The notes under the pieces: generated by a model | Databases searched by the model: none | Told to the model about the DNA's origin: nothing | What the model saw: the letters and a program-made list of their open reading frames with translations, nothing else | In this document: positions 10,498 to 33,060 of the stretch, one piece after another | Layout of the letters: every line of letters begins with the position of its first letter | Numbering within the stretch: position 1 is the stretch's first letter | Assembly: GCA_020053615.1 (NCBI GenBank) | Contig: JAGVMW010000114.1 | Location: forward strand, 1 to 33,303 | Source: an archaeon | GTDB taxonomy: Archaea; Nanobdellota; Nanobdellia; Woesearchaeales; GW2011-AR9 | Reading direction: 5' to 3' | Length of the DNA stretch: 33,303 nucleotides | Program-made: the position numbers and the translations under genes

Positions 10498-10498
10498 A

Positions 10499-11989: not shown

Positions 11990-11997
11990 TCCTTTTT

Positions 11998-13663: not shown

Positions 13664-13711
13664 TTCACCCCACCTGATAAGAAATACTTGCACATACTTA
13701 TAAATATTACT

Positions 13712-19395: not shown

Positions 19396-19399
19396 TCAA

Positions 19400-19434
19400 T
19401 AAAATTTCTGTTAGACTAAACTTAAGGGGTGCTT
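19400..19434. repeat. Left arm of the inverted repeat flanking the GIY-YIG/Mrr/Zn-ribbon block
   Basis: TAAAATTTCTGTTAG (19400-19414) and GGGGTGCTT (19426-19434) are exact reverse complements of 20913-20927 and 20900-20908. Confidence 0.85.
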
Positions 19435-20950: not shown

Positions 20951-21000
20951 CGTTGCACTAAAATTCAATCCTAACGGAGAGTTTAACAGCGATGTTATAC
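20951..21000 (+). repeat. Junction element J7 (CGTTGCACT ... TTTAACAGCGAT-GTTATAC)
   Basis: CGTTGCACT (20951-20959) matches the S1 block of J3 and J4. AACAGCG plus GTTATAC (20985-21000) match the core. It has the same orientation as the other junctions. Confidence 0.6.
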
Positions 21001-21175
21001 TCAATATTTTAATCACCTTTTCAGGCACGCTGTCGCTTCCGTAAATCTTACGCATTGGCACCTTCGCTAAATCGGCAACGACGACAAAACGAAATTCAAT
21101 TACTTCGTAACTAAACCTAACGATGATTTAGCGGTTCACTCCATTCTCCCAAATTTTCGCTAACATAAACTAATA

Positions 21176-21238
21176 GGGGGAGTTCTAAACTTTCTGACAA
21201 CTAACTTTGACGAGGGGGGAGTTCCGTGACGACGAGAA
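21176..21238 (+). repeat. S2-type block (GGGGGAGTTCTAAAC ... GGGGGGAGTTCCGTGACGACGAGAA) next to the 3' end of the large minus-strand block
   Basis: It resembles 3738-3800 (GGGGGGAATTCCGTAACGA...GCGAGAAAAC). It is also the inverse, with one mismatch, of ACGGAATTCCCCC at 32898-32910. Confidence 0.55.
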
Positions 21239-21257: not shown

Positions 21258-21509
21258 CTAAATGCTTCCTTGATGCACAAGAATTACAGCACCACCAGAT
21301 ACTATAGTTCTAAGATTTCCCACCTGACGCTGGAAGATTTCACTGCCATTAAAAAATGCAGCGTGTCCGTGAGGGCTACCAATATTTGGATAACCATAGA
21401 TTACATCAGTCCTTACACCACTAGCTGAACCACGATCATTCCAATTGAACCAACCGTCGTTTGTGCGAATACTATTATTTTGGTACATATCTGAACTCTT
21501 TATGAGCAT
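21258..21509 (-). CDS. Hypothetical 83-aa Gly/Asn-rich protein
   Basis: Its start overlaps the stop of the Cas4-like gene as TAATG. I recognise no motif. Confidence 0.4.
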   Translation of the reverse strand: MLIKSSDMYQNNSIRTNDGWFNWNDRGSASGVRTDVIYGYPNIGSPHGHAAFFNGSEIFQRQVGNLRTIVSGGAVILVHQGSI

Positions 21510-22183
21510 TACTTTTTAATTATTTCGCAAGAATTCTGAACCCATTCACAAAACCCACATTCTTCAGAGGGAGCGGGAATTTCAGCTTCTAAAACTTGAA
21601 CAACTTTCTTAAAAATATTCTCGGCGTTCTTGATATTAACTTTAATCTTGATTAAATCCTTATGGAAGTCTACATCACCATTCTCATGGACTTTGCTAGG
21701 ATGGTAAAATAATAGATAAGTATAATCCTCTGTCTCATAGCCATTCTTTCGTAAGAGAAAATTGTAGATATCCATCTGGTCTTGATAATGCTCGTGCGTA
21801 TCTTCTTTTAATGGGTAGCCTCTGGTTTTATAATCTAAAACAATCAGTTTCTTTCCCTTTTGGAGCAGATTATCAATAGCTCCATGAAAGAGATTACCTT
21901 TTTTATCAGTCCATGGTATTCCTTTGAAATTGCTTCTCCAAACTTTGAGGAGTTCTTCATTGTCAAAGAGCTTTACTTCACCTTTTAATTGTTGAAGTTC
22001 TGGAGGCAATTCTCCTCTTTTCATAAAGCGGTCAAAATGTTCTTTGAGAATTTTATCCATTCCACTCGGAAGAGATGGGAAAATGGAATCTGGACGTTTA
22101 ATGTTCTTGTTTAAAGCAAGCCAGAAACATCTAGGGCAATCTTTCAGTAAGCTTAGGCTTGATGGGCTGAATTTGTAGGTCAT
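21509..22183 (-). CDS. Cas4/RecB-like PD-(D/E)xK nuclease with a Cys cluster
   Basis: Motifs are GAIDNL, VLDYKT and QDQMDIY (QxxxY). Cysteines occur at CPRC (N-terminal) and CGFCEWVQNSC (C-terminal), as in Fe-S Cas4/AddB-type nucleases. Confidence 0.75.
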   Translation of the reverse strand: MTYKFSPSSLSLLKDCPRCFWLALNKNIKRPDSIFPSLPSGMDKILKEHFDRFMKRGELPPELQQLKGEVKLFDNEELLKVWRSNFKGIPWTDKKGNLFHGAIDNLLQKGKKLIVLDYKTRGYPLKEDTHEHYQDQMDIYNFLLRKNGYETEDYTYLLFYHPSKVHENGDVDFHKDLIKIKVNIKNAENIFKKVVQVLEAEIPAPSEECGFCEWVQNSCEIIKK

Positions 22184-22184
22184 T

Positions 22185-25100
22185 TTACGAAATAAAATCT
22201 AAAGTTATTAATCTTAATTTCTTCTCATCAAACTCGTCTAAGCCTTCTTTTTCATAAACCAGCTTATCCGAAACAAAATTAGTAACATCTACAATTAGTT
22301 TTTTCCAATTTTTATGTCCTTTTCTATAATTATTCCAAACTTTTCTAATAATTTGAATCCTCTTCTTAGTTAAACTAATGTTAACTAATTTCTTTCTAGT
22401 CTCTTCCCATTGTTTTTCTAATGCATTATCTTCCGGAAAATCTAAAATGTAATCCTCTATATCTCTCTCTATTTCGATAATTAATTGGCTCAGAAACTTT
22501 TTACTTCTTTCCTTACTCCAATCCTGTTGTTTTGTATCTGCTTCTTCCTTTACTCGTATTGAATTATATGTTTCTTTAATATCTTTAAGAATATTGGTGT
22601 TAATATCATATACTTCCTCGAAAAATTTAGGAATAACTCTTTTTTCGCTCTCTTTACAAGAAATAAATTGAAGTATTTCGGTTTTGTTCTTAATTGATTT
22701 TCTCGATTCTAAATCATGCAAATACCAGAAATGGAAATCTTCTCCATATTCATAATAAAAGAAAATTCCCCTAATACTTTTTTTAATCAAACCACTATGA
22801 ATCCCATCAGGCAGGTTTTCTAATTCTTTCATTGAACTTTTCTTGAGGTAAGTTTTCAATGGCTGATAAAAAACTTCTCCTCCACCAAATACGTCAGCTT
22901 CCAATTCATCTAAAACTGAAGATTCTTTATCTTTTATCCTCCTGATTACTCCAAAAACTTTAGGATGGATTTTTTCACCCAAAACAGTCTGATCTAATCC
23001 TACTGACTTATCTATATTGATTATTTTGTTTTGAAGAATGTTAACTAATTTTAATAATTCTTCTAATTCATCTTCTGGGAAGAAATTGTAAATATATATT
23101 TTATCATATAATGAGCCAATCCTGTCAATTCTACCTGCCCGCTGAATCATTCTTGTTGGATTCCAATGCAAATCATAATTTATTAAAATTTGTGCGGTCT
23201 GTAAGTTTTGTCCTTCTGATAATACATCAGTGCTTAGAAGAATGTCTATTTCTTTGTTTTTAAATCGTTCTATAATTTTTTGTCTGTCTTTTGGTGTAAA
23301 ACTGCCAGAACCAGAGATTTTTTGAAGCTTGATGTTTTTGAATTCTTTTTGTTTAGAAAGATAATCATAAACATAATCTAAAGTATCTTTGTAATAAGTA
23401 AAAACTACAATTTGGCTTTTTTCGTGTAATTTCAATAATTTATCTTTAAATTCAAGTAATTTTGCATCTTTATCAGGAGTTAAGTTCTTTATTTTTTCTA
23501 ATATACTCCCTAATAGTTGAATATCAATTTTAATGTCTTTAAACATCTCTTCTTTATTGTAATTATTTATGTTGAATTTATCTAATTGTGCTAGTATCTC
23601 CTGTTCAATTTCTTCTGAATCTTCCTCAAAGTCTTCATCTTCGGCAAGTATATATTTTATTAGTTTAGTATAAGCTTGTTTAGATAAGAATTTTCCTTCT
23701 TCTAAACAATTCATCATTGTCTTTAAGAACTTGATATGACGACTAACGCTAATCCTGAATGCCTCAATACTGCTTTCTAGTCTTTTTAGAAGAATTGTTT
23801 TGAAAATACCGCCTATGGCAATCATACGATTTAAAGCCAAGATTTCTTCTTGCGTTTGCAAATTTTCTTTTTTATATCTAAGAATATTATAATAAGCCAT
23901 AGTCAGCTTTTCGGATATTATGTCCGCAATTTCGCGATACATCCCTTGGTAAGTTTGATTCAGTTTGTAATTGATTGTTTCTAGCTTCCTATCTGGAAAT
24001 GTTATTTTCTGCCCATTAACTGTTGCATTAGGATACTCTTTTTTAATATAATCTCTGGTTCTTCTGATAGAAATTTCATTTAGTAAGTCGTTTAATAATG
24101 CAGGATTGCCTCTCTTATCAATTTCTTTAAAATGGACAAATAAATCAGGAATGTTCTCTTTTATGAATGTTGCATTATCATTTCCAACAAGAAGAAGAAT
24201 CTGTGAATACAAATCCCAAATAGAATTATTGATGGGTGTGGCAGTCATAAAGAGAATTTTAGGTTTTTCACCGTTTTCTTTTGTGATAAACTCAATTAAT
24301 GTGTTCATGTTCTCCCACCTGTTAGAGAGTTGATTTCTAAGATTATGGCTTTCATCAACAATTATTAATTCTACTTCTTCTAAATGCCCGCCAGTGGCAG
24401 TTTTTGCTTTATCTAAGAAGTCTTTAGAAGCTAAATTTTCTTGTGAAAGAATATTTTCAGTAAGTTGCTTATCTTTCAATGCGGGAAGCCACATTGTTTC
24501 CTTTAATTGTGCCGGACAGATAACTAAGCATCTCTTTCTTCTAAAAAAACCAAATTCTTCTAATACTTTAAGCGCAATATATGTTTTACCTAAACCAACC
24601 GAATCAGCAACCATGACTGCCCCATATTTTTTTAAACGTGAGAAGACTCTTTGAACAGCATCACTTTGAAATTCGGTTAATTCAACATTTGAAATACCAC
24701 TTTTGTCTTTCTTTTTTTCTTCTTCCTCTGATTCTGCGGCTATTTCATCTTTTTGCAGTTCATAAAGTGATTTTATATAAATTTGAAATGGAGTGTATTC
24801 TGTAGTTCCAAATCTTGAATTTTTGAGTAAAGTGATTAATTGCTCTTTAAATTCTAAAGATTCTTTCCAGAATTTATTGAACCAGTTTTCTCTACTATAT
24901 TCAACAAACATTTTACCCTGCTGAACAGTGTTATATTCTCCTTCTCTTGTAAGCCCAGCATAAGTAAAATTGGAAGAGCCACTAACCACTAATTTATCAA
25001 AAATATAAGTTTTTCCATGCAATAGGTTTTTGTCATAAATTCTGATTTCCACATTATGTTTTTCTAAAAAAGTAATTAAATCAGTAACATGGTCTTTCTT

Positions 25101-25391
25101 TTCTTTTGTAAGACCTAACTCTGCAATTTCTGTTTCTACTACTTTCAGCAGGGCTTTTCCTAAAGTCTGATTGTTATCCGTAAGTTCGGGGGATTTTCCA
25201 AGAAGCAAGCGAAATTTAGTAACTCCTTCTAATTTTTCTTTAACCAAAGCATACCCCTCCACGTTAAAGAATGCGGTAGCAATATCTAAATTAGTATTGG
25301 GATCTAAATGGAGAACTTTGTTTAGGAAAACAGACAGTTTTATGTTGTTGTTATCAACAATGTTTTCGTCAATCATCATTTGAATACCCAT
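22185..25391 (-). CDS. PLD-nuclease domain fused to an SNF2-family helicase
   Basis: The N-terminal LLHGKTYIFDKLVVSGSSN is an HxK..D..GSxN PLD motif. SNF2 motifs are GLGKT, IVDESHNLRN, TATPINN, LSEGQNLQ and QRAGRIDRIG. The likely start is the ATG at 25379, in an ATGA overlap with the upstream stop. Confidence 0.9.
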   Translation of the reverse strand: MGIQMMIDENIVDNNNIKLSVFLNKVLHLDPNTNLDIATAFFNVEGYALVKEKLEGVTKFRLLLGKSPELTDNNQTLGKALLKVVETEIAELGLTKEKKDHVTDLITFLEKHNVEIRIYDKNLLHGKTYIFDKLVVSGSSNFTYAGLTREGEYNTVQQGKMFVEYSRENWFNKFWKESLEFKEQLITLLKNSRFGTTEYTPFQIYIKSLYELQKDEIAAESEEEEKKKDKSGISNVELTEFQSDAVQRVFSRLKKYGAVMVADSVGLGKTYIALKVLEEFGFFRRKRCLVICPAQLKETMWLPALKDKQLTENILSQENLASKDFLDKAKTATGGHLEEVELIIVDESHNLRNQLSNRWENMNTLIEFITKENGEKPKILFMTATPINNSIWDLYSQILLLVGNDNATFIKENIPDLFVHFKEIDKRGNPALLNDLLNEISIRRTRDYIKKEYPNATVNGQKITFPDRKLETINYKLNQTYQGMYREIADIISEKLTMAYYNILRYKKENLQTQEEILALNRMIAIGGIFKTILLKRLESSIEAFRISVSRHIKFLKTMMNCLEEGKFLSKQAYTKLIKYILAEDEDFEEDSEEIEQEILAQLDKFNINNYNKEEMFKDIKIDIQLLGSILEKIKNLTPDKDAKLLEFKDKLLKLHEKSQIVVFTYYKDTLDYVYDYLSKQKEFKNIKLQKISGSGSFTPKDRQKIIERFKNKEIDILLSTDVLSEGQNLQTAQILINYDLHWNPTRMIQRAGRIDRIGSLYDKIYIYNFFPEDELEELLKLVNILQNKIINIDKSVGLDQTVLGEKIHPKVFGVIRRIKDKESSVLDELEADVFGGGEVFYQPLKTYLKKSSMKELENLPDGIHSGLIKKSIRGIFFYYEYGEDFHFWYLHDLESRKSIKNKTEILQFISCKESEKRVIPKFFEEVYDINTNILKDIKETYNSIRVKEEADTKQQDWSKERSKKFLSQLIIEIERDIEDYILDFPEDNALEKQWEETRKKLVNISLTKKRIQIIRKVWNNYRKGHKNWKKLIVDVTNFVSDKLVYEKEGLDEFDEKKLRLITLDFIS

Positions 25392-25882
25392 CCCTCTTTT
25401 CTAAACATTTCAATCAAGAATATGCATTCAATACCATATTCTTGGCATACATAAGGAACTTTAGTTTTTTTACCACTTATTCTTTCTTCTGAAACAACTA
25501 TTCTTTTTTTTATTGTTTCAATTAATGTTTTTTGAGCGTCTGCCTCCATCTCAATAGCAAGCGCAATAACAAAAGGATCTGCAATAGGAACCATACTATC
25601 TTCATTTAACCATTTAGGATATTTGGCTAATAATTCTTGAACAATTTGGATCTGTCTAGGTGTTAAATCTTTAAACAGCTTTGTCTGTTTTTTAGACCAT
25701 TCTTTCAGGTGGTCGTCTCCCCTTTCAATTTCTTTTAAAACTTCTTTTGGTGAAACTAAAAATCCACTTTCAATTAACGATTCTATTTTTTGCCAAACAG
25801 GAGGAAAAATATCTATGGGATACTTTCTATTTAACTCTATCAGTGAACATGAATCTATCACATAGTAATTTATGGATGTCAT
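25376..25882 (-). CDS. DUF4411 (PIN-like) protein
   Basis: YVIDSCSLIELNRKYPIDIFPPVWQKIESLIESGFLVSPKEVLKEIERGDDHLKEW matches the DUF4411 pattern. It has a 4-nt overlap with the upstream ImmA gene. Confidence 0.75.
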   Translation of the reverse strand: MTSINYYVIDSCSLIELNRKYPIDIFPPVWQKIESLIESGFLVSPKEVLKEIERGDDHLKEWSKKQTKLFKDLTPRQIQIVQELLAKYPKWLNEDSMVPIADPFVIALAIEMEADAQKTLIETIKKRIVVSEERISGKKTKVPYVCQEYGIECIFLIEMFRKEGWVFK

Positions 25883-27018
25883 TTGGAAGTCCTTTTTATT
25901 ACTTTTTCAAAATATTTGGTTTTTATTGATAGATAACTCAATGCATCGCTGTATGTGATAAATCCTTTATCCATGTTATCAGCAACCAAAGAAGGTAGTT
26001 TATGCCCTAATTCTGCAATGCATTTCTGGTCTTGAGTTCGCGGATCAACGATTTTGTGTTTTCCTTCAGCTTTAACGGGTATAGGTCTCTCCAGAATTGA
26101 TTTGTAGATTGATTGAGTAATAAAATTAAGATTAAACATATTATAAACAAGCATCGCTTTACTGACTTTGTATTTTCTTTTTAGTGTATTTAACGTATTT
26201 GTTTCTGTTAATGATTCTTTTTTCTGTGAAAATACTGAATTTGCCAATTCTGCTGGAAGTAAGAAATTTGACGCAAACAGGTTACACCATTTCTCAATCT
26301 TATCCTGTGTTTGAAATTCCGTTAAAGAGATTGCAGTCTCTCCAAGTAAAACATGCCCAAACTCGTGCATCAATGTAAATATTCTAGCTTCAATCTCATC
26401 CTGAGAGTTGGTCACTACAATTTTAGGATCTTTATCTGATAACGCAAAACCTCTTGCATCTTCTATGGGCATCGATATTTGAAATGAATAAATGTTTTTC
26501 TCTTCAAGCATTTCTCTTAAATAAGAATATACTTTGTAGGCATCTTTTAATTCAGTGGTTTGCTTTTCTACTGAAAAAAATAATAGTTCCCTATACTTAG
26601 TTGCTATCTGCTGCGGGTTATCCGTAATTTTATGTAATGTGATTTTAGGTTTCAAATCATTTTCAATATTTATGGCAAGCTCTTGGATGATTCCCTGTAA
26701 ATATCTTGCTTTTCTAATTGCCAAAATTGTCTTTTTGTTAAATTTTCCTTCTTTTCCTGGAAGCATACGGTAATCTTTTGGTTTTGGCTTCTCTTCAGGC
26801 GCTTTGGGCAGGAAGAATACAGCTAAAGGTCTTTTTAATTTATCTGCAAGAGCTTCTAATTGTTTTATGGTAATATTTCCTTTTAACCAATCTTTATATA
26901 TTGCTTCAGAAATATTTAGTTTTGAAATTAGTTCAGACTCATCCCAACCGGAAGTACTGATTGCCCATTTGATGACTTCAGGCTTTATTTGTATTTTTAC
27001 GGGTTTAGTTTTTGGCAT
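25879..27018 (-). CDS. XRE-type HTH fused to an ImmA/IrrE (M78, COG2856) metallopeptidase
   Basis: The zinc site HEFGH occurs in LMHEFGHVLL. The N-terminal HTH region reads ELISKLNISEAIYKDWLKG. Confidence 0.8.
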   Translation of the reverse strand: MPKTKPVKIQIKPEVIKWAISTSGWDESELISKLNISEAIYKDWLKGNITIKQLEALADKLKRPLAVFFLPKAPEEKPKPKDYRMLPGKEGKFNKKTILAIRKARYLQGIIQELAINIENDLKPKITLHKITDNPQQIATKYRELLFFSVEKQTTELKDAYKVYSYLREMLEEKNIYSFQISMPIEDARGFALSDKDPKIVVTNSQDEIEARIFTLMHEFGHVLLGETAISLTEFQTQDKIEKWCNLFASNFLLPAELANSVFSQKKESLTETNTLNTLKRKYKVSKAMLVYNMFNLNFITQSIYKSILERPIPVKAEGKHKIVDPRTQDQKCIAELGHKLPSLVADNMDKGFITYSDALSYLSIKTKYFEKVIKRTSK

Positions 27019-27075
27019 TTTGTACCTTGTAAATGTAATATTCTTTATGGTTATCTGTACTTTGTATATTAAAGT

Positions 27076-27570
27076 TTATATTGTTTTTCTTATCAAAGCG
27101 ATTAAGTAAGTATAAACCATATGTCCTGACTCAGCCACTTTTATCTTTAGTTCTTGTAACTTAGTTCTATCTGCAATTAAATCAATTTTAAATCTATTAT
27201 CTGACTTATTATTTATTCTTCTTAATTTTATTTCGATAATAACATAGGGATTATTAAAGCCATATCCTTTTGAGGGTAGAGGAAAATGCCCGCCCTTCTT
27301 TGTTATGAGTTGGGAGACATCAAAAATAACAATATCTGATCTGCACTTTAACTTTTTAGAGCGACCATACCACCTAACTTCACAATGCACCGGAATTGAT
27401 TGCTGATTATCTTCTGTTTGTTCCAAACCGTTAAAATCAGCAAGAAGTAAATGATAAAGATAGGCTCTAACATCTTCTTCAGTTAAGAATTTATCAGGAG
27501 TAGCTTTAAATTCATCTATTAAAGTATTAATCTTTTGTTCTACTTTTACTTTGATTTGTTGATTTTCCAT
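27076..27570 (-). CDS. Hypothetical protein with a PD-(D/E)xK nuclease-like motif
   Basis: HCEVR...RSDIVIFD...PYVIIEIKLRR fits E...D...ExK spacing. The call rests on the motif alone. Confidence 0.4.
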   Translation of the reverse strand: MENQQIKVKVEQKINTLIDEFKATPDKFLTEEDVRAYLYHLLLADFNGLEQTEDNQQSIPVHCEVRWYGRSKKLKCRSDIVIFDVSQLITKKGGHFPLPSKGYGFNNPYVIIEIKLRRINNKSDNRFKIDLIADRTKLQELKIKVAESGHMVYTYLIALIRKTI

Positions 27571-27572
27571 CT

Positions 27573-28112
27573 TTAACTCAATAGCCCAAAAAACAATGGT
27601 ACGTATTTTAGGGATATACCTGCCACTATTTTCAGTAGTTCAAGAGCATTTTCTCCGCTTTCTTTTAGGGTATTAAATTTTTCTAGTATATTAAATAAGC
27701 CCTTTTTCTTTTCTGAGTCTAATTCAGAGTCTTGCTCTATCATCTGTTTTAAAATGTAATGTTTTGAGTTGTTAATTACAATGGTATTACCGTCTCCTGC
27801 GGATTGAACTACATTCCCAATTGAAGAGTTTATTATCTGTTGAGATATGTTCTGGTCAATATCAACTAACGGTCTTTTGCCACAGGCGATTTCTAAACCT
27901 TTGGCAGTAACTTTATTCCAAATCATGCCTACAAGACCTCTTGCCAGAGTTTCTGTGTATTGAACCGCTCCAATTTCTTTAAGATATTCAAGAACATCAC
28001 ACACTTCTTCTTCATTAATCTTTAATTTTTCAGGAAGTTCTTCTACTTTGATTCTATCATCAGCTAATAATTTCAATACCGGTTCAGCTAAATGTATGGT
28101 TTTGGCATTCAT
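27573..28112 (-). CDS. Hypothetical protein with a possible N-terminal wHTH and a hydrophobic C-terminus
   Basis: EEVCDVLEYLKEIGAVQY is wHTH-like. The C-terminal IVAGISLKYVPLFFGLLS is hydrophobic. The gene is tightly packed in the operon, with 1-2 nt gaps. Confidence 0.45.
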   Translation of the reverse strand: MNAKTIHLAEPVLKLLADDRIKVEELPEKLKINEEEVCDVLEYLKEIGAVQYTETLARGLVGMIWNKVTAKGLEIACGKRPLVDIDQNISQQIINSSIGNVVQSAGDGNTIVINNSKHYILKQMIEQDSELDSEKKKGLFNILEKFNTLKESGENALELLKIVAGISLKYVPLFFGLLS

Positions 28113-28113
28113 T

Positions 28114-28938
28114 TTATTTTTTAAACAGTTCTCTTATATCTTTACTTCCAACTAGCTTTACGTTGTTAAAATGTTGGGGGTATTCTTCTCTAGTTAAAGT
28201 TATTAAATAATTAACCATGTACCATTTCAATCCATTATTCTCACTTTTCGCATTTGCTAAATGAATATAAGCATTTCTTGATTCCCTAATAATGTCTAAA
28301 CAATTATGTTTGTTAATATAACTATACTTTTTTAAGTATCTTTTGCCTTTTGTACCAACTAAAGCCGGAGTTTTATCGATTTTATATTTTTGAATAAAAG
28401 AAAGATAACCTTCCTTAAGAGATTTATTAGACGCATGGAATAGTTTAATACATTCATGAAATTTGAATGTTTCTGAGGAGAAATTTGAACTAATATCTTT
28501 CTTTGCATCATAATAAATCTTATTTAATTTGGATTGGGTTAATTGTGAGATTTTATTTAATTTATCCAATTTCATGGTGTATTTCTGAGAAAATTTGTTT
28601 GACAACATTTTGTTCAAACCAGTAAAAACACCATTTTTTCTGTCAAGCCCAACACACCTATCGGTTTTGTTTATAATGAAATTTCTTTTAAGTAAGATGA
28701 GTTTGACTAAGTGTTCTGCAGTTGAACCAATTAAATTCATTTTCTGAAGATGATAAGCTCTTGATTGGTAAAATTTCTGTTTTTGTCCTTGATTATAGGA
28801 AACAACTTTTTTATTTAACAAAATTTTGACTAATTTAAGATTTTCTTTGATTAAAGCTATATAAGTATCTACTACTATTGGTTGATATAAAAGTATATCA
28901 AATTTATCTTTCGAAATTTCCCATTGTTTTAGTTTCAT
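28114..28938 (-). CDS. Hypothetical helical protein with an RNxxxH motif, possibly HEPN (Abi_2/AbiD-F-like)
   Basis: IIRESRNAYIHLANA contains Rx4H in the RNxxxH form seen in several HEPN RNases. An upstream helix reads GSTAEHLVKLILLK. The call rests on the motif alone. Confidence 0.4.
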   Translation of the reverse strand: MKLKQWEISKDKFDILLYQPIVVDTYIALIKENLKLVKILLNKKVVSYNQGQKQKFYQSRAYHLQKMNLIGSTAEHLVKLILLKRNFIINKTDRCVGLDRKNGVFTGLNKMLSNKFSQKYTMKLDKLNKISQLTQSKLNKIYYDAKKDISSNFSSETFKFHECIKLFHASNKSLKEGYLSFIQKYKIDKTPALVGTKGKRYLKKYSYINKHNCLDIIRESRNAYIHLANAKSENNGLKWYMVNYLITLTREEYPQHFNNVKLVGSKDIRELFKK

Positions 28939-31900
28939 TTTTTCAAACTCGTCGCTTTGTTTAATCTTTGCTGTACTAACTCACAGACAGCCCAATATAC
29001 TTCTTTTCTTTCTTCTTTGGTTAATCCCAATTCATCAAAGATGATATTGTCAAGTTCTGCTCGGTCTGGAAGAGGCTTTGGCTCTTGTTCACGGATGGGT
29101 TTGGTGGGGTCGATGCCGAGTTCTTCAAATATTGATTTTACTTCTCTTGTAAAAAATTTATTAATATTATATTTTGAAAAATTCAATTTTTGGAGCGATA
29201 CCATTGGGATTTTATTAGCATCCATTGTAGCTAAATCCAGAGCACCCTGACCTAAATTTGAACGTCCATAAATTTCAATAAATAAAGCAGTAAATGTAGA
29301 GTTAAGAAGTAATGAAAAGTACTTTGGATTTACTTCTTTTTTTAGTTTTATCATGTGAAAGCGACGGTCACTTAATGCTTTCTTTTCCGAATATGGATGA
29401 ATAAACCGGTCATTATACCCATATAACATAAAGCAATTTGTGAACTCAACATTAGAAATAGACCACCAGCCCGGTTTTCTATTTACTACGGTTGGAACTT
29501 CTGGCCATGGGATTCCTGCTTTGACTTTACCTTTCTCTTTTGTCTCTTGTCTCTCTCCCCATTCTATATACTTTAAAGCATTGTTATGGTCCTTTGATTT
29601 CAGCGAGTTCTTAGATTCATTACAAATAAAAACAAATTTTTTGTTGATATATTTATTTAAACTAATGCACTTAACATCCTGAGGAGATTTAATCAATGGG
29701 ATAAGATAATCAGTCTCAATTTTCCATTTTTTTACTTGTTCTTCGTTCAAATAAAAGAAATCATTTATCCCGCTGTAAAGTCCCGTATCCACTTTACCGT
29801 ATAATTCTTTTAATACTCCAACATCCTTCTTACTGAGTATACTAAAAACTATGTCTGGAGAACGCAAGAACTTACTCCCCCACTTATTTCCTTCATAACT
29901 CCCTTTGCCAAACCTTCCATTTTCATACCCTTCTGGATATTCCCAACCATCTTCCAGCAAATCTTCCTGATTAATGGGATAAACCCTAAACTCATTTGTT
30001 TTCAGTATCTTCTCTGCTTTCTCAATCTTAACCAGATTAGCCGCATTAACCACTTCCTCAAATGGCTTCTTGAACATCACAAAGCGAGCAGTTTGACTAA
30101 ATCCAGAATATGTCGCTTTTCCATTGCCATTATACTCAGCGCCATACTCAAATAATGATTTTTGCTTGCCAATTACCGGCGCACCCAAAAGTGCAATAAT
30201 TGTATTTACATCAGCATGCTCAAAGCTTCGTTTGGCTTGATTGTCATAAATTCCAATAACGTGCGAATATCTTAACAAAAACTCCTGCAACCCCTTCCCA
30301 TAACCCACATCCAGCCAAGAATTAGAGGTAATAAAACAAAACACTCCACCAGAATTAAGCAAACTCAATCCGTGAAAGTAAAAATAGACATACAAATCGC
30401 TTTTCTTATCCCAATCAATAACGACAGGAAACCTATTTTGAACGGATTTAATCAATTTCTCTTTATATCCTCGTCTATCTTCAAGTGTAACCTCTTCTTT
30501 AAGCTTATTTGGCGGAGCAATCTTCTCCTGCCGCACATACGGCGGATTGCCAATCACAATATCAAACCCGCCTTCATCTGCAAATACTTCCGCAAAATCA
30601 ATATCCCAAACAAATGGTTTCTTGGCAGGATCTTTCAATAACTCTTTTACTTTCTTTAATTTCTCAATTTCATCAGCACATTCTTTTATCCGGTTTTCAA
30701 GCTCAATTAAATTCTTCTTCTCTTTTTTGATATTCTCCGCATCAATATTAACTGAAGCGCCAAATAAGCCCGTTTGCTTCTCTTTCTTACTTGAAGAATG
30801 GGTTAAGACTTGAATATCAGTCTCTAATGATTCTATCCGTTCATTCAAAATCTCTTCAAATAATCTAACCTCTTGCACTTTAAACTCTTCTGGAGTCTTA
30901 TATTTTGCTGAGGGAGAATTTTCAAAATATCTTCTTTTCTCATTTTTCAACTCTTCCAGTTTTTTCTTTAAATGCGGCTTCAGATTATTGCTTCGCACAT
31001 TAAAGCTGATTCCACCAATTTCCTGCACTAATGAATCACCAACACGCAGATTCATGTTTAAATTTGGTAATAACGGATGTTTCCTTAATTCTTCATCTTT
31101 AAATTGTGTTTCCACAATCAACTGAAGCCATAATCTTAATTCTGAGGCATGAATTGCCCAGGGCATGACATCTACCCCATATAGAGAACGTTGGATTATC
31201 CTATACTTTAATTGGAAGTCGCTTAAGCTAGAACCAATATGCTTAAACACAATTTTATACAATTCTACCAAGACATTAAGCATCCCTACTAAAAATGCCC
31301 CCGAACCACAGGCAGGATCAACAATAGAAAGATTATCCAACGCTTCCTCTATTTTACCCCAGCATTTACGCTGATTGAACTTCTTCTCAATTTTCTCTTT
31401 ATCTTCATCAAATACAAACTCGTATAATTCCTCTTTAGGTATCTCTAAATTCTTTCCTAGATACTCTACTAAAGACCTTCGACACATAAAATCTACTTCT
31501 ACTTTAGCAGTATAGAATATACCCCAATCCCCACGCAAATCTTCTTCATTTTCATAAACATCCTCTGTAATATTAGCCAGAGACTCATAAACATAACCAA
31601 TCATTTGAGGATCAACGGAGACTTCTACATCTAATACAGAATCTTCTTTGATGGTAAAATTGTAGCTTTCGAAGAAGTCAAATATCTCTTTAAAGAGATT
31701 ATCAGATATGTTTATCTTTAAGTCGTCTAACCCTATTTTTTTAGTAAATAAGCCGCCATTAAGATAGGGACTATTTGACAATATTTTATTTACTTCCTCG
31801 GGAAGTTCAGGATGATAACTGGATTTATTATTAAAAGCCTCAAAGAACAGAGGTTTTAACCATTTATCATAAAATTCATTATTTCCATATTTACTAATTC

Positions 31901-32672
31901 GTTTATATAAATCCCAATATGCCTGCATAAATTTTCTATCTTTATTCAGCCATTCTTTCTTAGCTATAAAATAAATGAACATAATTCTATTCATAAATTG
32001 TAATGTAAATTCATGGGCTATTTTCGGGTCTACCTTCTGTTTTTTGAGTTCTTTTCTCACCACTAAAAATAGTCTTTGATAATCCTCAAAAAATTTCTTA
32101 GTAACTTTCTGAACATCAAACGCCTCTTTCCATAACCGCCAGAGTTCTCGCCATGTTTTCTTTTGGTCTTCCAGAAATATATTGCAAATTATCTCAATAT
32201 CTGTATAATAAAGCTCATCTTTTTTCAATATTAATGTGGTTGTTTTAAGTTTATGTTTTCCTACCTCCTGCTTTTCGTAATCTGGAAACACAATATGTAT
32301 CTCTTTATAATCGATTGTAATAATTAAGAGACATCGCGTGTACATTTCAGCGAATTTGTTTGCGATATATCGCATAAGAGGCTTACTAAGAGAGTTAGTT
32401 TCAATTAAGAAGACATTGAGTTTATCATAACTCATAACTGTGTAAATTGTTTTAATTTTGTCTCGTTCTTCACTGGCAAAAGAAAATTCTTTTATCTTTT
32501 TAACATAAGATGAATCAAAAATTGCTTCTTTTGGATAATTTAGACTCTTAAACAAACCATATATATCCTCTGAATTCTTTATGAAAGAGATATAATCTTT
32601 AACTTTCTTTCGGAGATCTGAATTATTATTCACTTTTCCCGCCCCCTCTTCTCTAACTCTGCTTCCATGCAT
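28935..32672 (-). CDS. Large N6-adenine DNA methyltransferase, Eco57I/type IIG- or PglX-like
   Basis: Motif I is IVDPACGSGAFLVGML and motif IV is VIGNPPYV, with a coiled-coil insert between them and a long C-terminal region. I could not identify a clear N-terminal nuclease motif. The more likely start is the GTG at 32633, in a GTGA overlap with the RHH-2 stop, rather than the ATG at 32672. Confidence 0.8.
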   Translation of the reverse strand: MHGSRVREEGAGKVNNNSDLRKKVKDYISFIKNSEDIYGLFKSLNYPKEAIFDSSYVKKIKEFSFASEERDKIKTIYTVMSYDKLNVFLIETNSLSKPLMRYIANKFAEMYTRCLLIITIDYKEIHIVFPDYEKQEVGKHKLKTTTLILKKDELYYTDIEIICNIFLEDQKKTWRELWRLWKEAFDVQKVTKKFFEDYQRLFLVVRKELKKQKVDPKIAHEFTLQFMNRIMFIYFIAKKEWLNKDRKFMQAYWDLYKRISKYGNNEFYDKWLKPLFFEAFNNKSSYHPELPEEVNKILSNSPYLNGGLFTKKIGLDDLKINISDNLFKEIFDFFESYNFTIKEDSVLDVEVSVDPQMIGYVYESLANITEDVYENEEDLRGDWGIFYTAKVEVDFMCRRSLVEYLGKNLEIPKEELYEFVFDEDKEKIEKKFNQRKCWGKIEEALDNLSIVDPACGSGAFLVGMLNVLVELYKIVFKHIGSSLSDFQLKYRIIQRSLYGVDVMPWAIHASELRLWLQLIVETQFKDEELRKHPLLPNLNMNLRVGDSLVQEIGGISFNVRSNNLKPHLKKKLEELKNEKRRYFENSPSAKYKTPEEFKVQEVRLFEEILNERIESLETDIQVLTHSSSKKEKQTGLFGASVNIDAENIKKEKKNLIELENRIKECADEIEKLKKVKELLKDPAKKPFVWDIDFAEVFADEGGFDIVIGNPPYVRQEKIAPPNKLKEEVTLEDRRGYKEKLIKSVQNRFPVVIDWDKKSDLYVYFYFHGLSLLNSGGVFCFITSNSWLDVGYGKGLQEFLLRYSHVIGIYDNQAKRSFEHADVNTIIALLGAPVIGKQKSLFEYGAEYNGNGKATYSGFSQTARFVMFKKPFEEVVNAANLVKIEKAEKILKTNEFRVYPINQEDLLEDGWEYPEGYENGRFGKGSYEGNKWGSKFLRSPDIVFSILSKKDVGVLKELYGKVDTGLYSGINDFFYLNEEQVKKWKIETDYLIPLIKSPQDVKCISLNKYINKKFVFICNESKNSLKSKDHNNALKYIEWGERQETKEKGKVKAGIPWPEVPTVVNRKPGWWSISNVEFTNCFMLYGYNDRFIHPYSEKKALSDRRFHMIKLKKEVNPKYFSLLLNSTFTALFIEIYGRSNLGQGALDLATMDANKIPMVSLQKLNFSKYNINKFFTREVKSIFEELGIDPTKPIREQEPKPLPDRAELDNIIFDELGLTKEERKEVYWAVCELVQQRLNKATSLKK

Positions 32673-32779
32673 TTCTCAAACTGACGAGAAACTATCCAGC
32701 CTTCTTTTTTGCATAACTCCCTATAGGTATCATACAATTTTGAATTAACTTTCAAAGTGATATTCTTACTCTCTTCCAT
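32630..32779 (-). CDS. Ribbon-helix-helix small protein RHH-2, a paralog of 13511-13663; not in the supplied ORF track
   Basis: My manual translation gives [49 protein letters not shown]. In my alignment 40 of 44 core residues are identical to RHH-1. The gene is preceded by GAGGGAATGA. Confidence 0.7.
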   Translation of the reverse strand: MEESKNITLKVNSKLYDTYRELCKKEGWIVSRQFEKCMEAELEKRGREK

Positions 32780-32849
32780 TATCATTCCCTCTAACTAGAT
32801 TAATAATAAATAACTGCACATACTTATAAAGATTACTATGCTGAAACTC

Positions 32850-32953
32850 TTCTCGCCCCCAACGACTTAAACTGAACTCCCTACTAACAACAAAACTACG
32901 GAATTCCCCCACGACGAACGACTAAAATAATGTCTGCTTCGCAGTAATTGATT
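32850..32953 (+). repeat. Leader-type (S2) repeat upstream of RHH-2 and the methyltransferase
   Basis: TTCTCGCCCCC (32850-32860) and ACGGAATTCCCCC...CGAACGACTAAAATAATGTCTGCTTCGCAGTAATTGAT (32898-32953) are near-identical to 13799-13853. Confidence 0.8.
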
Positions 32954-33060
32954 GATGATTCATTAAAAAACTACGGTAGCCCCTAACTCGCTCAGAAACA
33001 AAGTTTCTGGCGTGCAAGAAAAATCGCTGTTTTTCTTCGCATCTCAGCGCTGAAAAAACT

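What the first reader, a model, noticed from the sequence alone, without database searches (positions are those of the whole stretch)
21258..32779. An 11.5-kb minus-strand block combines methyltransferase, PLD-SNF2 helicase, Cas4-like nuclease and TA-like genes without matching a named defence system
Ten co-directional genes are mostly overlapping or 1-2 nt apart, with one 57-nt gap at 27019-27075. In order they are: RHH; a 1245-aa N6A methyltransferase; a 274-aa HEPN-like protein; a 179-aa wHTH-like protein; a 164-aa PD-(D/E)xK-like protein; XRE-ImmA/IrrE; DUF4411; PLD-SNF2 (1068 aa); a Cas4-like nuclease; and an 83-aa ORF. The combination of methyltransferase, SNF2 and PLD recalls class 1 DISARM, and the large methyltransferase recalls BREX PglX. 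However, the defining partners (DrmA/DrmB, or BrxC/PglZ) are absent. The block is either a stack of three small modules or one composite, undescribed system.
Basis: partly seen in the sequence, partly recalled or inferred. Interest (0 to 1): 0.8.

Follow-up and report, generated by a model that had tools for sequence, protein, structure and literature searches.

The report
Two-gene methylase–helicase-nuclease system with cargo
The block is one operon built on a widespread but apparently unnamed two-gene restriction-like core: a large DNA adenine methyltransferase plus a helicase fused to a nuclease. Swappable toxin and nuclease "cargo" genes sit between the two core genes.

Summary
The ten minus-strand ORFs exist as described and are tightly packed.

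**Conserved core.** Only two genes form a conserved core: the ~1232-aa Eco57I/MmeI-type N6-adenine methyltransferase and the 1068-aa HKD(PLD)-SNF2 protein.
- All 11 close-clade loci with a complete interval (window included) keep them co-directional, with 0–10 unrelated genes between them.
- 38 of 50 informative loci across bacteria and archaea pair the helicase with a recognisable homologue of this methyltransferase.
- No DrmA/DrmB, PglZ/BrxC or DUF499 partner recurs.

**Cargo.**
- XRE-M78 + DUF4411 (RosmerTA-like) recurs in that slot in 4 of 11 close loci.
- The 164-aa PD-(D/E)xK protein recurs in one relative and is frameshifted here, which explains the "57-nt gap".
- The 274-aa and 179-aa genes are unique cargo.
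- The Cas4-like gene also occurs elsewhere without the system.
- The 83-aa ORF is not conserved.

**RM-like behaviour.** The methyltransferase has no conserved nuclease motif, and its target-recognition domain (TRD) has been swapped relative to a relative whose helicase is 94% identical.

**Verdict.** This is neither three stacked systems nor a ten-gene system. It is a minimal DISARM/BREX-related, ATP-dependent restriction-like pair with an internal defence-gene hotspot. It is a new variant of a known kind, and its function is inferred, not shown.

The parts
32803..32969 (-). Upstream leader of the operon. It holds a conserved TATA-like stretch (32803-32837, ...TTTATAAGTATGTGCA...) and the inverted-flank motif GGGGGAATTCCG (32899-32910).
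   Evidence: It is duplicated upstream of the type I RM operon (13677-13711, 13807-13869; D3, D8; alignment). The motif count is 5 against 0.21 expected. The same motif pair brackets the homologous cassette in L003. The promoter role is inferred.
32630..32785 (-). 51-aa RHH-type small DNA-binding protein; a putative controller or regulator of the operon.
   Evidence: Weak RepB-RCR_reg (RHH) hit, E = 0.0076. It is 78% identical to the 52-aa gene preceding the methyltransferase in L003. A paralogue (86% nucleotide identity) precedes hsdM at 13511-13693. Its stop overlaps the methyltransferase's GTG start.
28935..32633 (-). CORE 1: ~1232-aa gamma-class N6-adenine DNA methyltransferase of the Eco57I/MmeI type. 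It has a variable target-recognition domain (about residues 900-1150) and no recognisable nuclease domain.
   Evidence: Pfam Eco57I 3.6e-32 and MmeI_Mtase. PADLOC REase_MTase_IIG 2e-58, above DrmMI 2e-23 and PglX 1e-13. Motif I is VDPACGSGAFL and motif IV is GNPPY; there is no conserved D..(D/E)xK in the N-terminal ~170 aa of 21 homologues. TRD swap against L003. Homologues lie next to PLD-SNF2 in every close locus.
28114..28938 (-). CARGO: 274-aa orphan protein with a HEPN-like R-N-x-Y-x-H motif (R221...H226); a putative RNase effector.
   Evidence: Only 2 homologues were found in 5.8 billion proteins. One of them is embedded in a type I RM operon (L001). The motif is conserved. No HMM hits. 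AF2 was unusable.
27573..28112 (-). CARGO: 179-aa orphan protein, possibly with an N-terminal winged helix.
   Evidence: Sub-threshold TFIIE_alpha hit, E = 0.006. Singleton cluster. Absent from the 168 loci screened with it (L001-L168).
27005..27570 (-). CARGO: PD-(D/E)xK-type nuclease-like gene. The annotated ORF is 164 aa (27076-27570). It is frameshifted at the T-run 27095-27097, and the intact reading frame would run to 27005.
   Evidence: Family of 211 representatives. Invariant E31, D33, H62, E64, D79, K101, E113, K115. AF2 pLDDT 92. Weak Foldseek matches to PD-(D/E)xK nucleases. A 74%-identical homologue sits directly after the methyltransferase in L006/L007. Frameshift shown.
25879..27018 (-). 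RECURRENT CARGO: 379-aa XRE-HTH + M78 (ImmA/IrrE) zinc peptidase with an intact HEFGH motif; RosmerTA RmrA-like antitoxin or sensor.
   Evidence: Peptidase_M78 6e-17. RmrA 8e-18. spr1629-family antitoxin 2.5e-17. Homologues occupy the same slot in L006/7, L009, L011 and L008.
25376..25882 (-). RECURRENT CARGO: 168-aa DUF4411 PIN-like nuclease; the putative toxin partner of XRE-M78.
   Evidence: DUF4411 3e-31. Homologues follow XRE-M78 in L006/7, L009 and L011. The family is described as the toxin of HTH-DUF955 three-component TA systems (PMC5499597).
22185..25391 (-). CORE 2: 1068-aa HKD(PLD) nuclease + SNF2 ATPase/translocase + conserved C-terminal region; the putative restriction subunit. 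The start may be M5 at 25379.
   Evidence: PLDc_2 34-175, SNF2, Helicase_C. PADLOC 'HKD+Snf2' C3a139 1e-56, DrmD 2e-43. Invariant H125, K127, D132, GSSN138-141, GLGKT266-270 and DESH346-349 in 21 homologues. More than 5700 relatives at E < 1e-30.
21509..22183 (-). FACULTATIVE: 224-aa Cas4-like PD-(D/E)xK nuclease ('solo-Cas4' type). It has a CxxC at C16/C19 and a C-terminal Cx2Cx6C.
   Evidence: PDDEXK_1 7e-13. Cas4 models 1e-10. Shared only with L003 among the system's loci. An 88%-identical copy in Woesearchaeota contigs lies after a wHTH gene with no methyltransferase or helicase. phrog_31195 3e-41.
21258..21509 (-). Doubtful 83-aa ORF; probably not a functional part of the system.
   Evidence: No family hits. 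The cluster holds only this contig's two gene calls. The segment 21234-21538 is missing from L003, while both sides align.
20995..21235 (-). Conserved downstream flank of the cassette, carrying inverted copies of GGGGGAGTTC (21176-21187, 21215-21226).
   Evidence: About 93% identical to L003 13893-14121, judged by eye from the alignment block; the BLAST segment is 86% over 241 nt including indels, against 87% for the adjacent coding DNA. About 70% identical to the flank after hsdR. No RNA-structure signal (z = +0.55). No Rfam hit.

Best explanation
The block is a single operon or cassette whose conserved core is a two-gene, ATP-dependent, restriction-modification-like defence system.

**The two core genes**
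- A large nuclease-free gamma-N6-adenine methyltransferase with its own target-recognition domain.
- A protein that fuses one HKD (phospholipase-D-type) nuclease domain to an SNF2 translocase.

**Proposed mechanism (inferred, not shown)**
1. The methyltransferase marks a short, probably asymmetric, host motif.
2. Unmodified sites on incoming DNA license the HKD-SNF2 protein to translocate along the DNA using ATP.
3. The DNA is cut when two single-HKD domains dimerise. This resembles type ISP, type III and MANTIS-type enzymes.
4. The small RHH protein upstream acts as a controller.

**The slot between the core genes**
The interval between the two core genes is a hotspot that accumulates interchangeable 'backup' modules. 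In this window it holds:
- a HEPN-like orphan (274 aa);
- a wHTH-like orphan (179 aa);
- a frameshifted PD-(D/E)xK nuclease (164 aa);
- a RosmerTA-like XRE-M78 / DUF4411(PIN) pair.

A solo-Cas4-like nuclease has been picked up at the 3' end.
For: **Shown: the core pair**
- The methyltransferase and HKD-SNF2 are co-directional neighbours in all 11 distinct close-clade loci with a complete interval, the window included: L003, L006, L008, L009, L010, L011, L089, L090, L175, L177. They have 0, 0, 1, 1, 1, 2, 2, 3, 5, 5 and 10 genes between them.
- In 38 of 50 informative loci from diverse bacteria and archaea the helicase has a homologous methyltransferase on the same strand within 10 kb. In 8 of the other 12 I read an upstream ORF of about 1400-2400 aa off the map, five of them with a weak methyltransferase hit.
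- Look-ups anchored on the methyltransferase recover the helicase in both cases where a context was retrieved.
- Similarity of helicase and methyltransferase to the window pair co-varies across 58 loci (Spearman 0.75, Pearson 0.91).
- Flanking co-directional ORFs show no recurrent third partner.

**Shown: the cargo slot**
- 97 intervening ORFs from other loci carry Schlafen/AlbA_2, M78 + DUF4411, MNT, PIN, DUF4258, TIR, Uma2, PDDEXK_3, SocA and Mrr_N domains.

**Shown: RM-like features**
- Catalytic motifs are intact and invariant: HKD, Walker A and DESH in the helicase; DPACGSG and NPPY in the methyltransferase.
- The methyltransferase N-terminus has no conserved nuclease motif.
- The TRD alone has been replaced between the window and L003: 16-38% identity over residues 950-1150, against 80-100% over residues 1-900 and 91% over the last ~30 residues.

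**Shown: operon structure**
- The genes are translationally coupled by overlaps.
- The whole block is bracketed by conserved inverted flanks, also seen in L003.

**Precedents from papers**
- Nuclease-SNF2 fusions defend against phage, and 66.5% of hma operons carry inserted defence genes (PMC11232893).
- Embedded HEPN, PIN, Schlafen and PD-(D/E)xK 'backup effectors' occur in BREX and BR operons (PMC12839542).
Against: - There is no experimental or methylome evidence for this family. Restriction of unmethylated DNA, site licensing and HKD dimerisation are inferences from domain content and analogy.
- 12 of 50 informative loci lack a clearly homologous methyltransferase at my threshold.
- Gene calling in the loci was a crude longest-ORF procedure.
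- The N-terminal ~170 aa of the methyltransferase is unassigned, so a divergent nuclease cannot be fully excluded.
- XRE-M78/DUF4411 shows about the same divergence as the core in four loci. It might therefore be functionally integrated rather than mere cargo.
- The literature library is partial. The pair may already be named in a paper I could not search.
Confidence: 0.7

Rival explanations
1. The block is a stack of independent systems that merely abut: a self-contained type IIG RM enzyme, a RosmerTA-like toxin-antitoxin pair, and a separate PLD-helicase (+Cas4-like) restriction enzyme of the SauUSI/type IV kind.
For: - PADLOC's best hit for the methyltransferase is REase_MTase_IIG (2e-58).
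- XRE-M78 + DUF4411 is an autonomous module elsewhere (PMC5499597; on the opposite strand in L074).
- The whole window is a defence island.
Against: - The methyltransferase and HKD-SNF2 are co-inherited in every close locus and in most distant ones.
- The methyltransferase lacks a conserved nuclease motif.
- A modification-dependent nuclease tightly linked to an active methyltransferase would be self-toxic (inference).
Confidence: 0.1
2. All ten genes form one obligate composite system in which the 274/179/164-aa trio, the TA-like pair and the Cas4-like/83-aa genes are all required components.
For: - Tight operon packing with overlaps.
- One pair of inverted flanks brackets the whole block.
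Against: - The 274-aa and 179-aa genes occur with the system nowhere else.
- L003, whose helicase is 94% identical, has ten entirely different genes in the slot.
- L010 and L177 have none.
- The Cas4-like gene occurs independently.
- The 83-aa ORF is missing from L003.
- The 164-aa gene is frameshifted.
Confidence: 0.03
3. The core pair plus XRE-M78/DUF4411 is a functionally integrated four-gene system. The peptidase-antitoxin senses failure or inhibition of the restriction core and releases the PIN-like toxin, giving an abortive-infection backstop like PrrC with EcoprrI.
For: - The pair occupies the same slot in 4 of 11 close-clade loci. L008 adds a divergent XRE-M78 homologue and L003 an XRE fragment.
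- Its divergence tracks that of the core: 49-54% identity for XRE-M78 and 50-64% for DUF4411, against 52-75% and 53-83% for the core genes.
- The M78 HExxH motif is intact.
- The concept of backup effectors in BREX/BR operons exists (PMC12839542).
Against: - The pair is absent from 5 of 11 close loci and from nearly all bacterial loci.
- The same pair is an autonomous TA module in many genomes.
- There is no evidence of physical or regulatory coupling.
Confidence: 0.15
4. It is a degenerate remnant of class 1 DISARM, or of a BREX-related (Hma / Type-2 BR) system, that has lost DrmABC or the DUF499 ATPase.
For: - DrmD and DrmMI profiles hit the two core proteins.
- Type-2 BR helicases share the N-terminal HKD + SNF2 architecture (PMC12839542).
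Against: - The scores are far below the family cut-offs (DrmD 185 against 610 bits; PglX 63 against 900).
- The partner genes are missing across the whole family and not just here.
- Both genes are intact, highly conserved (55-94% identity across phyla), and show active TRD turnover. This argues for a functional stand-alone system.
Confidence: 0.05

Closest known systems
Class 1 DISARM (DrmD SNF2 helicase, DrmMI N6A methyltransferase, DrmA, DrmB, DrmC PLD nuclease)
   Same: It combines an SNF2 ATPase, a large Eco57I-like N6-adenine methyltransferase and a PLD nuclease. DrmD and DrmMI profiles detect the two core proteins.
   Different: There is no DrmA or DrmB (DUF1998) here or around homologues. 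The PLD domain is fused to the SNF2 protein rather than being a separate DrmC. Scores are far below the NCBIfam DrmD cut-off (185 against 610 bits).
Type-2 BREX-related (BR) / Hma systems (DUF499 ATPase + N6 methyltransferase + HKD- or REase-SNF2 helicase + DUF3780)
   Same: The effector has an N-terminal HKD nuclease fused to Swi2/Snf2 and is paired with an N6 methyltransferase (PMC12839542). These operons are also known hotspots for inserted defence genes (PMC11232893; PMC12839542).
   Different: There is no DUF499 ATPase and no DUF3780. The methyltransferase is Eco57I/MmeI-type with M_Eco57I_C. The HmaA profile matches only residues 464-760 (108 bits), against 190 bits for 'HKD+Snf2' C3a139.
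Type ISP restriction-modification enzymes (LlaGI, LlaBIII) and MANTIS/Gao_RL
   Same: They combine a gamma-methyltransferase + TRD that recognises asymmetric sites with an ATP-driven translocase-nuclease that cleaves away from the site (PMC3874165; MANTIS preprint). This is the best mechanistic analogy.
   Different: Type ISP is a single polypeptide with an Mrr-type nuclease and an SF2 motor that is not SNF2. MANTIS additionally needs the AAA+ MtsA and MtsB. Here there are two polypeptides and an HKD nuclease.
Type IIG/IIL RM enzymes (MmeI, Eco57I)
   Same: The methyltransferase-TRD architecture and Pfam families are shared. The PADLOC best hit is REase_MTase_IIG, and a profile of the family hits MmeI 5HR4 weakly.
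   Different: There is no conserved N-terminal D...(D/E)xK nuclease motif. The methyltransferase is consistently paired with a separate helicase-nuclease.
RosmerTA / HTH-DUF955 + PIN-like three-component TA modules
   Same: The XRE-M78 protein matches RmrA models (8e-18). DUF4411.1 is described as the toxin downstream of HTH-DUF955 fusions (PMC5499597). RosmerTA is defined as a Zn-peptidase antitoxin plus a toxin of unknown function.
   Different: DUF4411 matches no PADLOC RmrT model. Here the pair is embedded inside another system's operon.
solo-Cas4 of DPANN archaea
   Same: It has the PD-(D/E)xK Cas4/AddB-like fold signature with Cys clusters. It is found without CRISPR-Cas, as reported for most DPANN genomes (PMC5704561).
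   Different: Here and in L003 it is fused into the 3' end of the methyltransferase/HKD-SNF2 operon, 1 nt after the helicase stop.

Membership tests
Class 1 DISARM | DrmA helicase and DrmB (DUF1998), the core genes with DrmC | tested here: not met
   No protein of the block or window matches them as best hit. A PADLOC DrmA model gives only a secondary hit on the SNF2 core of the PLD-SNF2 protein (5.5e-28, against 1e-56 for HKD+Snf2), and nothing matches DrmB or DUF1998. DUF1998 occurs in at most 1 of 77 ORFs flanking homologous cores.
Class 1 DISARM | DrmD SNF2 helicase and DrmMI methyltransferase at family level | tested here: inconclusive
   NCBIfam DISARM_DrmD scores 185 bits against a cut-off of 610. 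PADLOC DrmD is 2e-43 but 'HKD+Snf2' is better at 1e-56. DrmMI is 2e-23, weaker than type IIG at 2e-58.
Class 1 DISARM | PLD-family nuclease (DrmC) | tested here: met
   PLDc_2 at residues 34-175 with an invariant HKD motif, but as an N-terminal fusion and not a separate gene.
BREX (types 1-6) | PglZ phosphatase and BrxC/PglY ATPase | tested here: not met
   No hits in the block or the window. None recur in the flanks of homologous loci.
BREX (types 1-6) | PglX methyltransferase at family level | tested here: not met
   NCBIfam BREX methyltransferase models score 22-63 bits against cut-offs of 400-900.
Type-2 BR / Hma | DUF499 AAA+ ATPase and DUF3780 | tested here: not met
   Absent from the window. 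Not among the recurrent flanking families.
Type-2 BR / Hma | N-terminal HKD nuclease fused to a Swi2/Snf2 helicase | tested here: met
   The architecture is shown by Pfam and by invariant motifs. Orthology with BR helicases was not tested by phylogeny.
Type IIG RM enzyme | Endonuclease domain in the same polypeptide as the methyltransferase and TRD | tested here: not met
   In an alignment of 21 homologues the N-terminal ~170 aa has only L31, R88 and L102 invariant, with no acidic or Lys catalytic motif. No structure-based check of that domain was made.
Type IIG RM enzyme | Gamma-class N6A methyltransferase with a C-terminal TRD | tested here: met
   Motif I precedes NPPY. Eco57I and MmeI_Mtase hits. 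The TRD-like variable region matches the CamA and BseCI TRD regions. TRD swap.
RosmerTA | RmrA: antitoxin with HTH + Zn-peptidase | tested here: met
   16 PADLOC RmrA models hit, best 7.7e-18. Peptidase_M78 6e-17. HEFGH present.
RosmerTA | RmrT toxin | tested here: inconclusive
   DUF4411 hits no PADLOC model. RmrT toxins are heterogeneous. DUF4411 is a predicted PIN-like toxin.
Cas4 | PD-(D/E)xK nuclease with a 4-Cys Fe-S cluster, associated with CRISPR adaptation genes | tested here: inconclusive
   PDDEXK_1 is above threshold. Pfam Cas_Cas4 (17.4 against 22.7 bits) and TIGR00372 (34.6 against 65) are below threshold. The Cys residues are present by inspection. The window has no cas1/cas2 gene among its annotated ORFs and no CRISPR-like array among its repeats.
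HEPN | Rx4-6H motif in an all-alpha fold | tested here: inconclusive
   R221-N-A-Y-I-H226 is conserved in 3 sequences. The predicted secondary structure is all helical, but the model pLDDT is 42. No HMM hit.

The most novel reading that the evidence does not exclude
The methyltransferase + HKD-SNF2 pair is an undescribed, widespread, minimal ATP-dependent restriction-modification type. It would be a split, HKD-armed analogue of type ISP and the two-gene ancestor or relative of DISARM class 1 and the BR systems. On this reading its operon has a dedicated internal docking slot for abortive-infection modules. Here, the XRE-M78/DUF4411 pair would act as a guard that fires when phage anti-restriction proteins disable the core. 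The inverted flanks (GGGGGARTTCCG) shared with the neighbouring type I RM operon would mark these operons as exchangeable cassettes in DPANN archaea.
Probability: 0.25. Interest if true: 0.8.

Novelty: new variant of a known kind. Interest (0 to 1): 0.6.

Why it matters
- **A missed system.** If the inference holds, current defence finders split a very common gene pair into a "type IIG RM" call plus an orphan helicase, so the system goes unrecognised. The search returned more than 5,700 helicase relatives and more than 4,100 methyltransferase relatives, many of the best-scoring from archaea including DPANN, Asgard, Thermoplasmata and Thaumarchaeota.
- **A simple model.** It would be the simplest known member of the SNF2-plus-methyltransferase defence lineage (DISARM class 1, BREX type 3, Hma/BR, ARMADA). 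That makes it a tractable two-protein model for how these systems couple methylation status to translocation and cleavage.
- **Layered defence.** The variable slot between the two genes gives a natural catalogue of candidate backup effectors. It also offers a testable case of layered, guard-type immunity.
- **Practical point.** The methyltransferases are a pool of new m6A specificities, with evident TRD swapping.

Tried and rejected
**Searches that found nothing**
- Near-identity DNA search of the block against plasmids and phages gave nothing useful.
- Sequence search of PDB with the methyltransferase gave no hit. With the helicase it gave only generic SNF2/DEAD hits.
- PHROGs, Pfam, NCBIfam and PADLOC gave nothing for the 274-aa, 179-aa, 164-aa and 83-aa proteins.
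- A PDB profile search with the 164-aa family gave no hit.
- The viral-contig scan found only distant helicase relatives (35% identity or less), so there is no evidence that the close clade is virus-borne.
- An exact-match scan of viral contigs for the flank sequence found nothing.
- Literature searches for a named methyltransferase + HKD-SNF2 pair found only related multi-gene systems.

**Look-ups that failed**
- Exact-sequence look-up of the window's own 274-aa protein had no record.
- The same was true for the Cuniculiplasma divulgatum methyltransferase homologue.

**Analyses that gave no usable result**
- AF2 of the 274-aa protein from a 3-sequence alignment gave pLDDT 42, so I ran no fold search on it.
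- The idea that the highly conserved downstream flank is a structured RNA is rejected. There is no Rfam hit. The folding z-score is +0.55. Only 3 compensatory pairs appear among 3 sequences.

**Ideas tested and rejected**
- A conserved partner for the 274-aa family: none found.

Full report
**1. Observation**

The window is a 33.3-kb contig of about 33% GC. The best-matching proteins that carry a source name come from DPANN archaea (Nanoarchaeota, Woesearchaeota). All ten minus-strand ORFs in the finding are present at the stated coordinates.

Their junctions are overlaps or gaps of 1-2 nt:
- The RHH stop overlaps a GTG start of the methyltransferase at 32633 as GTGA. The homologue alignment agrees with that start.
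- The methyltransferase/274-aa and XRE-M78/DUF4411 junctions are 4-nt overlaps.

Profile searches confirm the annotated domains:
- Eco57I and MmeI_Mtase in the 1245-aa ORF
- Peptidase_M78 in the 379-aa ORF
- DUF4411
- PLDc_2 + SNF2 + Helicase_C in the 1068-aa ORF
- PDDEXK_1 / Cas4-like in the 224-aa ORF

The 274-aa, 179-aa, 164-aa and 83-aa proteins hit nothing above threshold in Pfam, NCBIfam, PADLOC or PHROGs.

The rest of the window is a defence island. It holds an AbiE-like pair, a type I RM operon that itself carries embedded genes, an IS transposase, MNT-HEPN, GIY-YIG and Mrr.

**2. What is conserved: a two-gene core**

The PLD-SNF2 protein belongs to a very large, strongly conserved family. 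More than 5,700 proteins match at E < 1e-30, and the best 120 are 55-94% identical, nearly all over the full length. They come from DPANN, Asgard, Altiarchaeota, Nitrospirae and Deltaproteobacteria.

Contexts of three close relatives showed the same pattern each time. A 1208-1238-aa Eco57I/MmeI-type methyltransferase lies upstream on the same strand. A different set of genes lies between it and the helicase:

| Locus | Helicase identity to window | Genes between methyltransferase and helicase |
|---|---|---|
| L003 | 94% | ten unrelated small genes (KilA-N, HTH_3, UPF0158, DUF488 and others) |
| L006/7 | 83% | three genes |
| L008 | 65% | one gene |

I then fetched 80 genome loci and 80 metagenome loci around helicase relatives. 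I called ORFs and labelled them with phmmer against the ten block proteins.
- Of 50 loci with a full-length helicase and enough flank, 38 have a homologue of the window methyltransferase (at least 60 bits) co-directional within 10 kb. It lies upstream in 25 and directly downstream in 13.
- In 8 of the remaining 12 I read an upstream ORF of about 1400-2400 aa off the locus map; five of these give a weak methyltransferase hit.
- All seven close-clade loci in that set, the window among them, have the methyltransferase upstream, with 0-10 intervening genes.

The reverse test also holds. Methyltransferase homologues at 67% and 55% identity are followed by the helicase. One has a single DUF365 gene between them (L175). 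The other, from Nitrosotenuis, has none (L177).

Similarity of the helicase and of the methyltransferase to the window pair co-varies across 58 loci (Spearman 0.75, Pearson 0.91).

A Pfam scan of 77 co-directional flanking ORFs found no recurrent third partner. DUF1998, DUF499 and PglZ each occur in at most one ORF. Only scattered OLD-type ATPases and GmrSD appear, that is, neighbouring defence systems.

**3. What varies: the slot between the core genes**

The 97 ORFs lying between methyltransferase and helicase in other loci carry these domains:
- Schlafen/AlbA_2 + HATPase_c_4 (4 ORFs)
- Peptidase_M78 (3) and DUF4411 (3)
- HTH_3
- minimal nucleotidyltransferases (3)
- DUF3800, PIN, DUF4258, Uma2, PDDEXK_3, TIR_2, SocA_Panacea, Mrr_N and KilA-N

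This is the usual repertoire of toxin-antitoxin and abortive-infection modules.

The window's own cargo resolves as follows.

*XRE-M78 + DUF4411*
- The pair sits in the same slot in the window, L006/7, L009 (uncultured archaeon ASS_A1) and L011 (Thermoplasmata).
- A divergent XRE-M78 homologue stands alone in L008, and an 86-aa XRE fragment remains in L003.
- That makes 4 of 11 distinct close-clade loci with the full pair.
- Its divergence is similar to that of the core.
- It matches RosmerTA RmrA models.
- DUF4411 is the predicted PIN-like toxin of HTH-DUF955 modules (PMC5499597).

*The 164-aa protein*
- It recurs only in L006/7, at 74% identity, directly after the methyltransferase.
- It belongs to an unannotated family of 211 representatives.
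- The family has invariant E31, D33, H62, E64, D79, K101, E113 and K115.
- An AF2 model reached pLDDT 92.
- Its weak Foldseek matches are almost all PD-(D/E)xK nucleases: cap-snatching endonucleases, the R2 restriction-like endonuclease domain, BstEII and NucC.
- The window copy lacks one T in the run at 27095-27097.

*The 274-aa protein*
- It has only two homologues in 5.8 billion proteins.
- One of them sits inside a type I RM operon, next to another RNxxxH protein.
- A conserved SRNxYxH motif is the only support for calling it HEPN.

*The 179-aa protein*
- It is a singleton.

*The Cas4-like gene*
- It follows the helicase only here and in L003.
- An 88%-identical copy lies in Woesearchaeota contigs after a wHTH gene, with no methyltransferase or helicase nearby.
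- This fits the 'solo-Cas4' reported for most DPANN genomes (PMC5704561).

*The 83-aa ORF*
- It lies in a ~300-nt segment that is absent from L003, while both sides align.

**4. Features that bear on mechanism**

*Helicase*
- One HKD motif is invariant (H125, K127, D132, GSSN138-141).
- The SNF2 motifs are also invariant: GLGKT266-270, DESH346-349 and QRAGRIDRIG.
- A single HKD domain has to dimerise to form an active site. This is established for Nuc and BfiI and is cited from general knowledge.

*Methyltransferase*
- Motif I (VDPACGSGAFL) precedes motif IV (GNPPY), which is the gamma-class N6A order.
- It has a long coiled insert, a hypervariable region and a conserved C-terminal helix bundle.
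- Its N-terminal ~170 aa has no conserved acidic or lysine motif.
- A profile of the family hits CamA and BseCI over the TRD and C-terminal part. It hits MmeI, PglX and BrxX only around motif I.

*TRD exchange*
- Window and L003 methyltransferases are 80-100% identical over residues 1-900 and 91% over the last ~30 residues.
- They are only 16-38% identical over residues 950-1150.
- By eye, L003's TRD resembles that of a distant bacterial member, L042.
- Specificity-domain exchange is typical of RM systems.

From these features I infer an RM-like division of labour. The methyltransferase would do modification and recognition. The HKD-SNF2 protein would do ATP-driven translocation and cleavage of unmodified DNA. 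The closest mechanistic analogues are type ISP enzymes (PMC3874165) and MANTIS. None of this has been shown experimentally for this family.

**5. Operon and cassette boundaries**

The RHH gene and about 300 nt of leader are duplicated in front of the window's type I RM operon. Positions 13521-13654 match 32634-32767 at 86% (alignment).

Both operons are bracketed by imperfect inverted flanks containing GGGGGARTTCCG:
- 13800-13811(-) and 3739-3750(+) for the type I RM operon
- 32899-32910(-) and 21215-21226(+) for the block
- 5 matches against 0.21 expected by chance

The same pair brackets the homologous cassette in L003, at a different genomic site.

The downstream flank (20995-21235) looks about 93% identical to L003 across the well-aligned stretch. 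The BLAST segment is 86% over 241 nt including indels, against 87% for the adjacent coding DNA. It shows no sign of being a structured RNA.

The RHH-to-Cas4-like stretch therefore behaves as one bounded unit. What the flanks do is unknown.

**6. Comparison with known systems**

- **Class 1 DISARM.** It shares the SNF2 + methyltransferase + PLD content. It is defined by DrmA and DrmB, which are absent here and around homologues. DrmD and PglX family cut-offs are missed by a wide margin.
- **Type-2 BR / Hma systems.** They have the same HKD-SNF2 architecture. They are centred on a DUF499 ATPase with DUF3780 (PMC12839542), and neither is present.
- **ARMADA.** It pairs an SNF2 helicase with a PglX-like methyltransferase, but it also needs a YprA helicase.
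- **PADLOC.** Its best model for the helicase is 'HKD+Snf2' (C3a139), a candidate family and not a defined system.

The cargo-slot behaviour has precedents. 66.5% of hma operons contain inserted defence genes (PMC11232893). BREX and BR operons embed HEPN, PIN, Schlafen and PD-(D/E)xK 'backup' effectors (PMC12839542). The window's own type I RM operon does the same.

In the searchable library I found no paper that names or tests the two-gene methyltransferase + HKD-SNF2 pair. That library is incomplete.

**7. Verdict**

The block matches no named system, and the methyltransferase and PLD-SNF2 do belong together. But it is neither three stacked systems nor a ten-gene machine. It is a minimal, widespread, apparently uncharacterised RM-like pair with an internal defence-gene hotspot.

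- Novelty: new variant of a known kind.
- Interest: 0.6.

The main caveats are that function is inferred and that the locus counts come from capped samples with crude gene calls.

Noticed in passing
window 3739-3750, 13800-13811, 21176-21226, 32899-32910; leaders 13521-13869 and 32634-32969; L003 775-786 and 13902-13913: The type I RM operon and the methyltransferase/PLD-SNF2 operon share a paralogous RHH gene and leader (86% nucleotide identity). Each is bracketed by imperfect inverted flanks containing GGGGGARTTCCG (5 hits against 0.21 expected). The same bracket surrounds the homologous cassette in L003. The flanks may be cassette boundaries or shared regulatory elements; their function is unknown.
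   Followed up: partly
window 20995-21235: This non-coding stretch downstream of the Cas4-like gene looks about 93% identical to L003 in the aligned block, at least as conserved as the adjacent coding DNA (87%). It has no Rfam hit, no significant folding energy (z = +0.55), and no exact match in viral contigs.
   Followed up: yes
window 27095-27097 (T-run) and 27005-27120: A one-base deletion relative to the L006 homologue frameshifts the 164-aa PD-(D/E)xK gene. It removes the family's conserved C-terminal ~30 aa and creates the apparent 57-nt intergenic gap. It could be a sequencing error or a real pseudogenising lesion.
   Followed up: yes
window 28935-32633 (methyltransferase residues ~900-1150) against L003 1038-4754: The target-recognition domain has been replaced between two otherwise ~95%-identical methyltransferases. 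Identity is 16-38% in the TRD and 80-100% elsewhere. L003's TRD resembles that of a distant bacterial homologue (L042).
   Followed up: partly
window 3801-13693: The type I RM operon (hsdM 11998-13521, hsdS 7326-8645, hsdR 3801-6968) also carries embedded cargo. This includes Schlafen/AlbA_2-HATPase (10499-11989), an integrase-SAM-like fragment (10042-10497), a DUF1016/YhcG nuclease (9004-10038) and small ORFs. It is the same embedding phenomenon as in the studied block.
   Followed up: partly
window 118-291 and 19227-19400: A 174-nt direct repeat at 94% identity gives two copies of a small ORF (74 aa at 98-322; 81 aa at 19148-19393) of unknown function, about 19.1 kb apart. The spacing equals that of the duplicated RHH leaders, which hints at a larger segmental duplication or a shared cassette scaffold.
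   Followed up: no
window 10714-10760: A 12-nt tandem repeat (TTATCGGCTCAC, about four copies) lies inside the Schlafen/AlbA_2 gene.
   Followed up: no
L001 6020-7391: The only long-contig homologue of the 274-aa protein lies inside a type I RM operon (hsdM ... GIY-YIG-hsdS). It is directly preceded by a 217-aa protein that also carries an RNxxxH (HEPN-like) motif.
   Followed up: partly
L008 13767-21784: In one relative the methyltransferase/HKD-SNF2 pair abuts a complete type I CRISPR-Cas locus (cas6, cas7/DevR, cas5, cas3, cas4, cas1, cas2). This may explain why PADLOC carries the helicase family as a CRISPR-linked candidate ('C3a139 HKD+Snf2').
   Followed up: no
window 14056-15471: An IS-type DDE transposase (DDE_Tnp_1 / DUF772) sits between the two RM-like cassettes. 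L006 has a DDE transposase immediately upstream of its methyltransferase.
   Followed up: no
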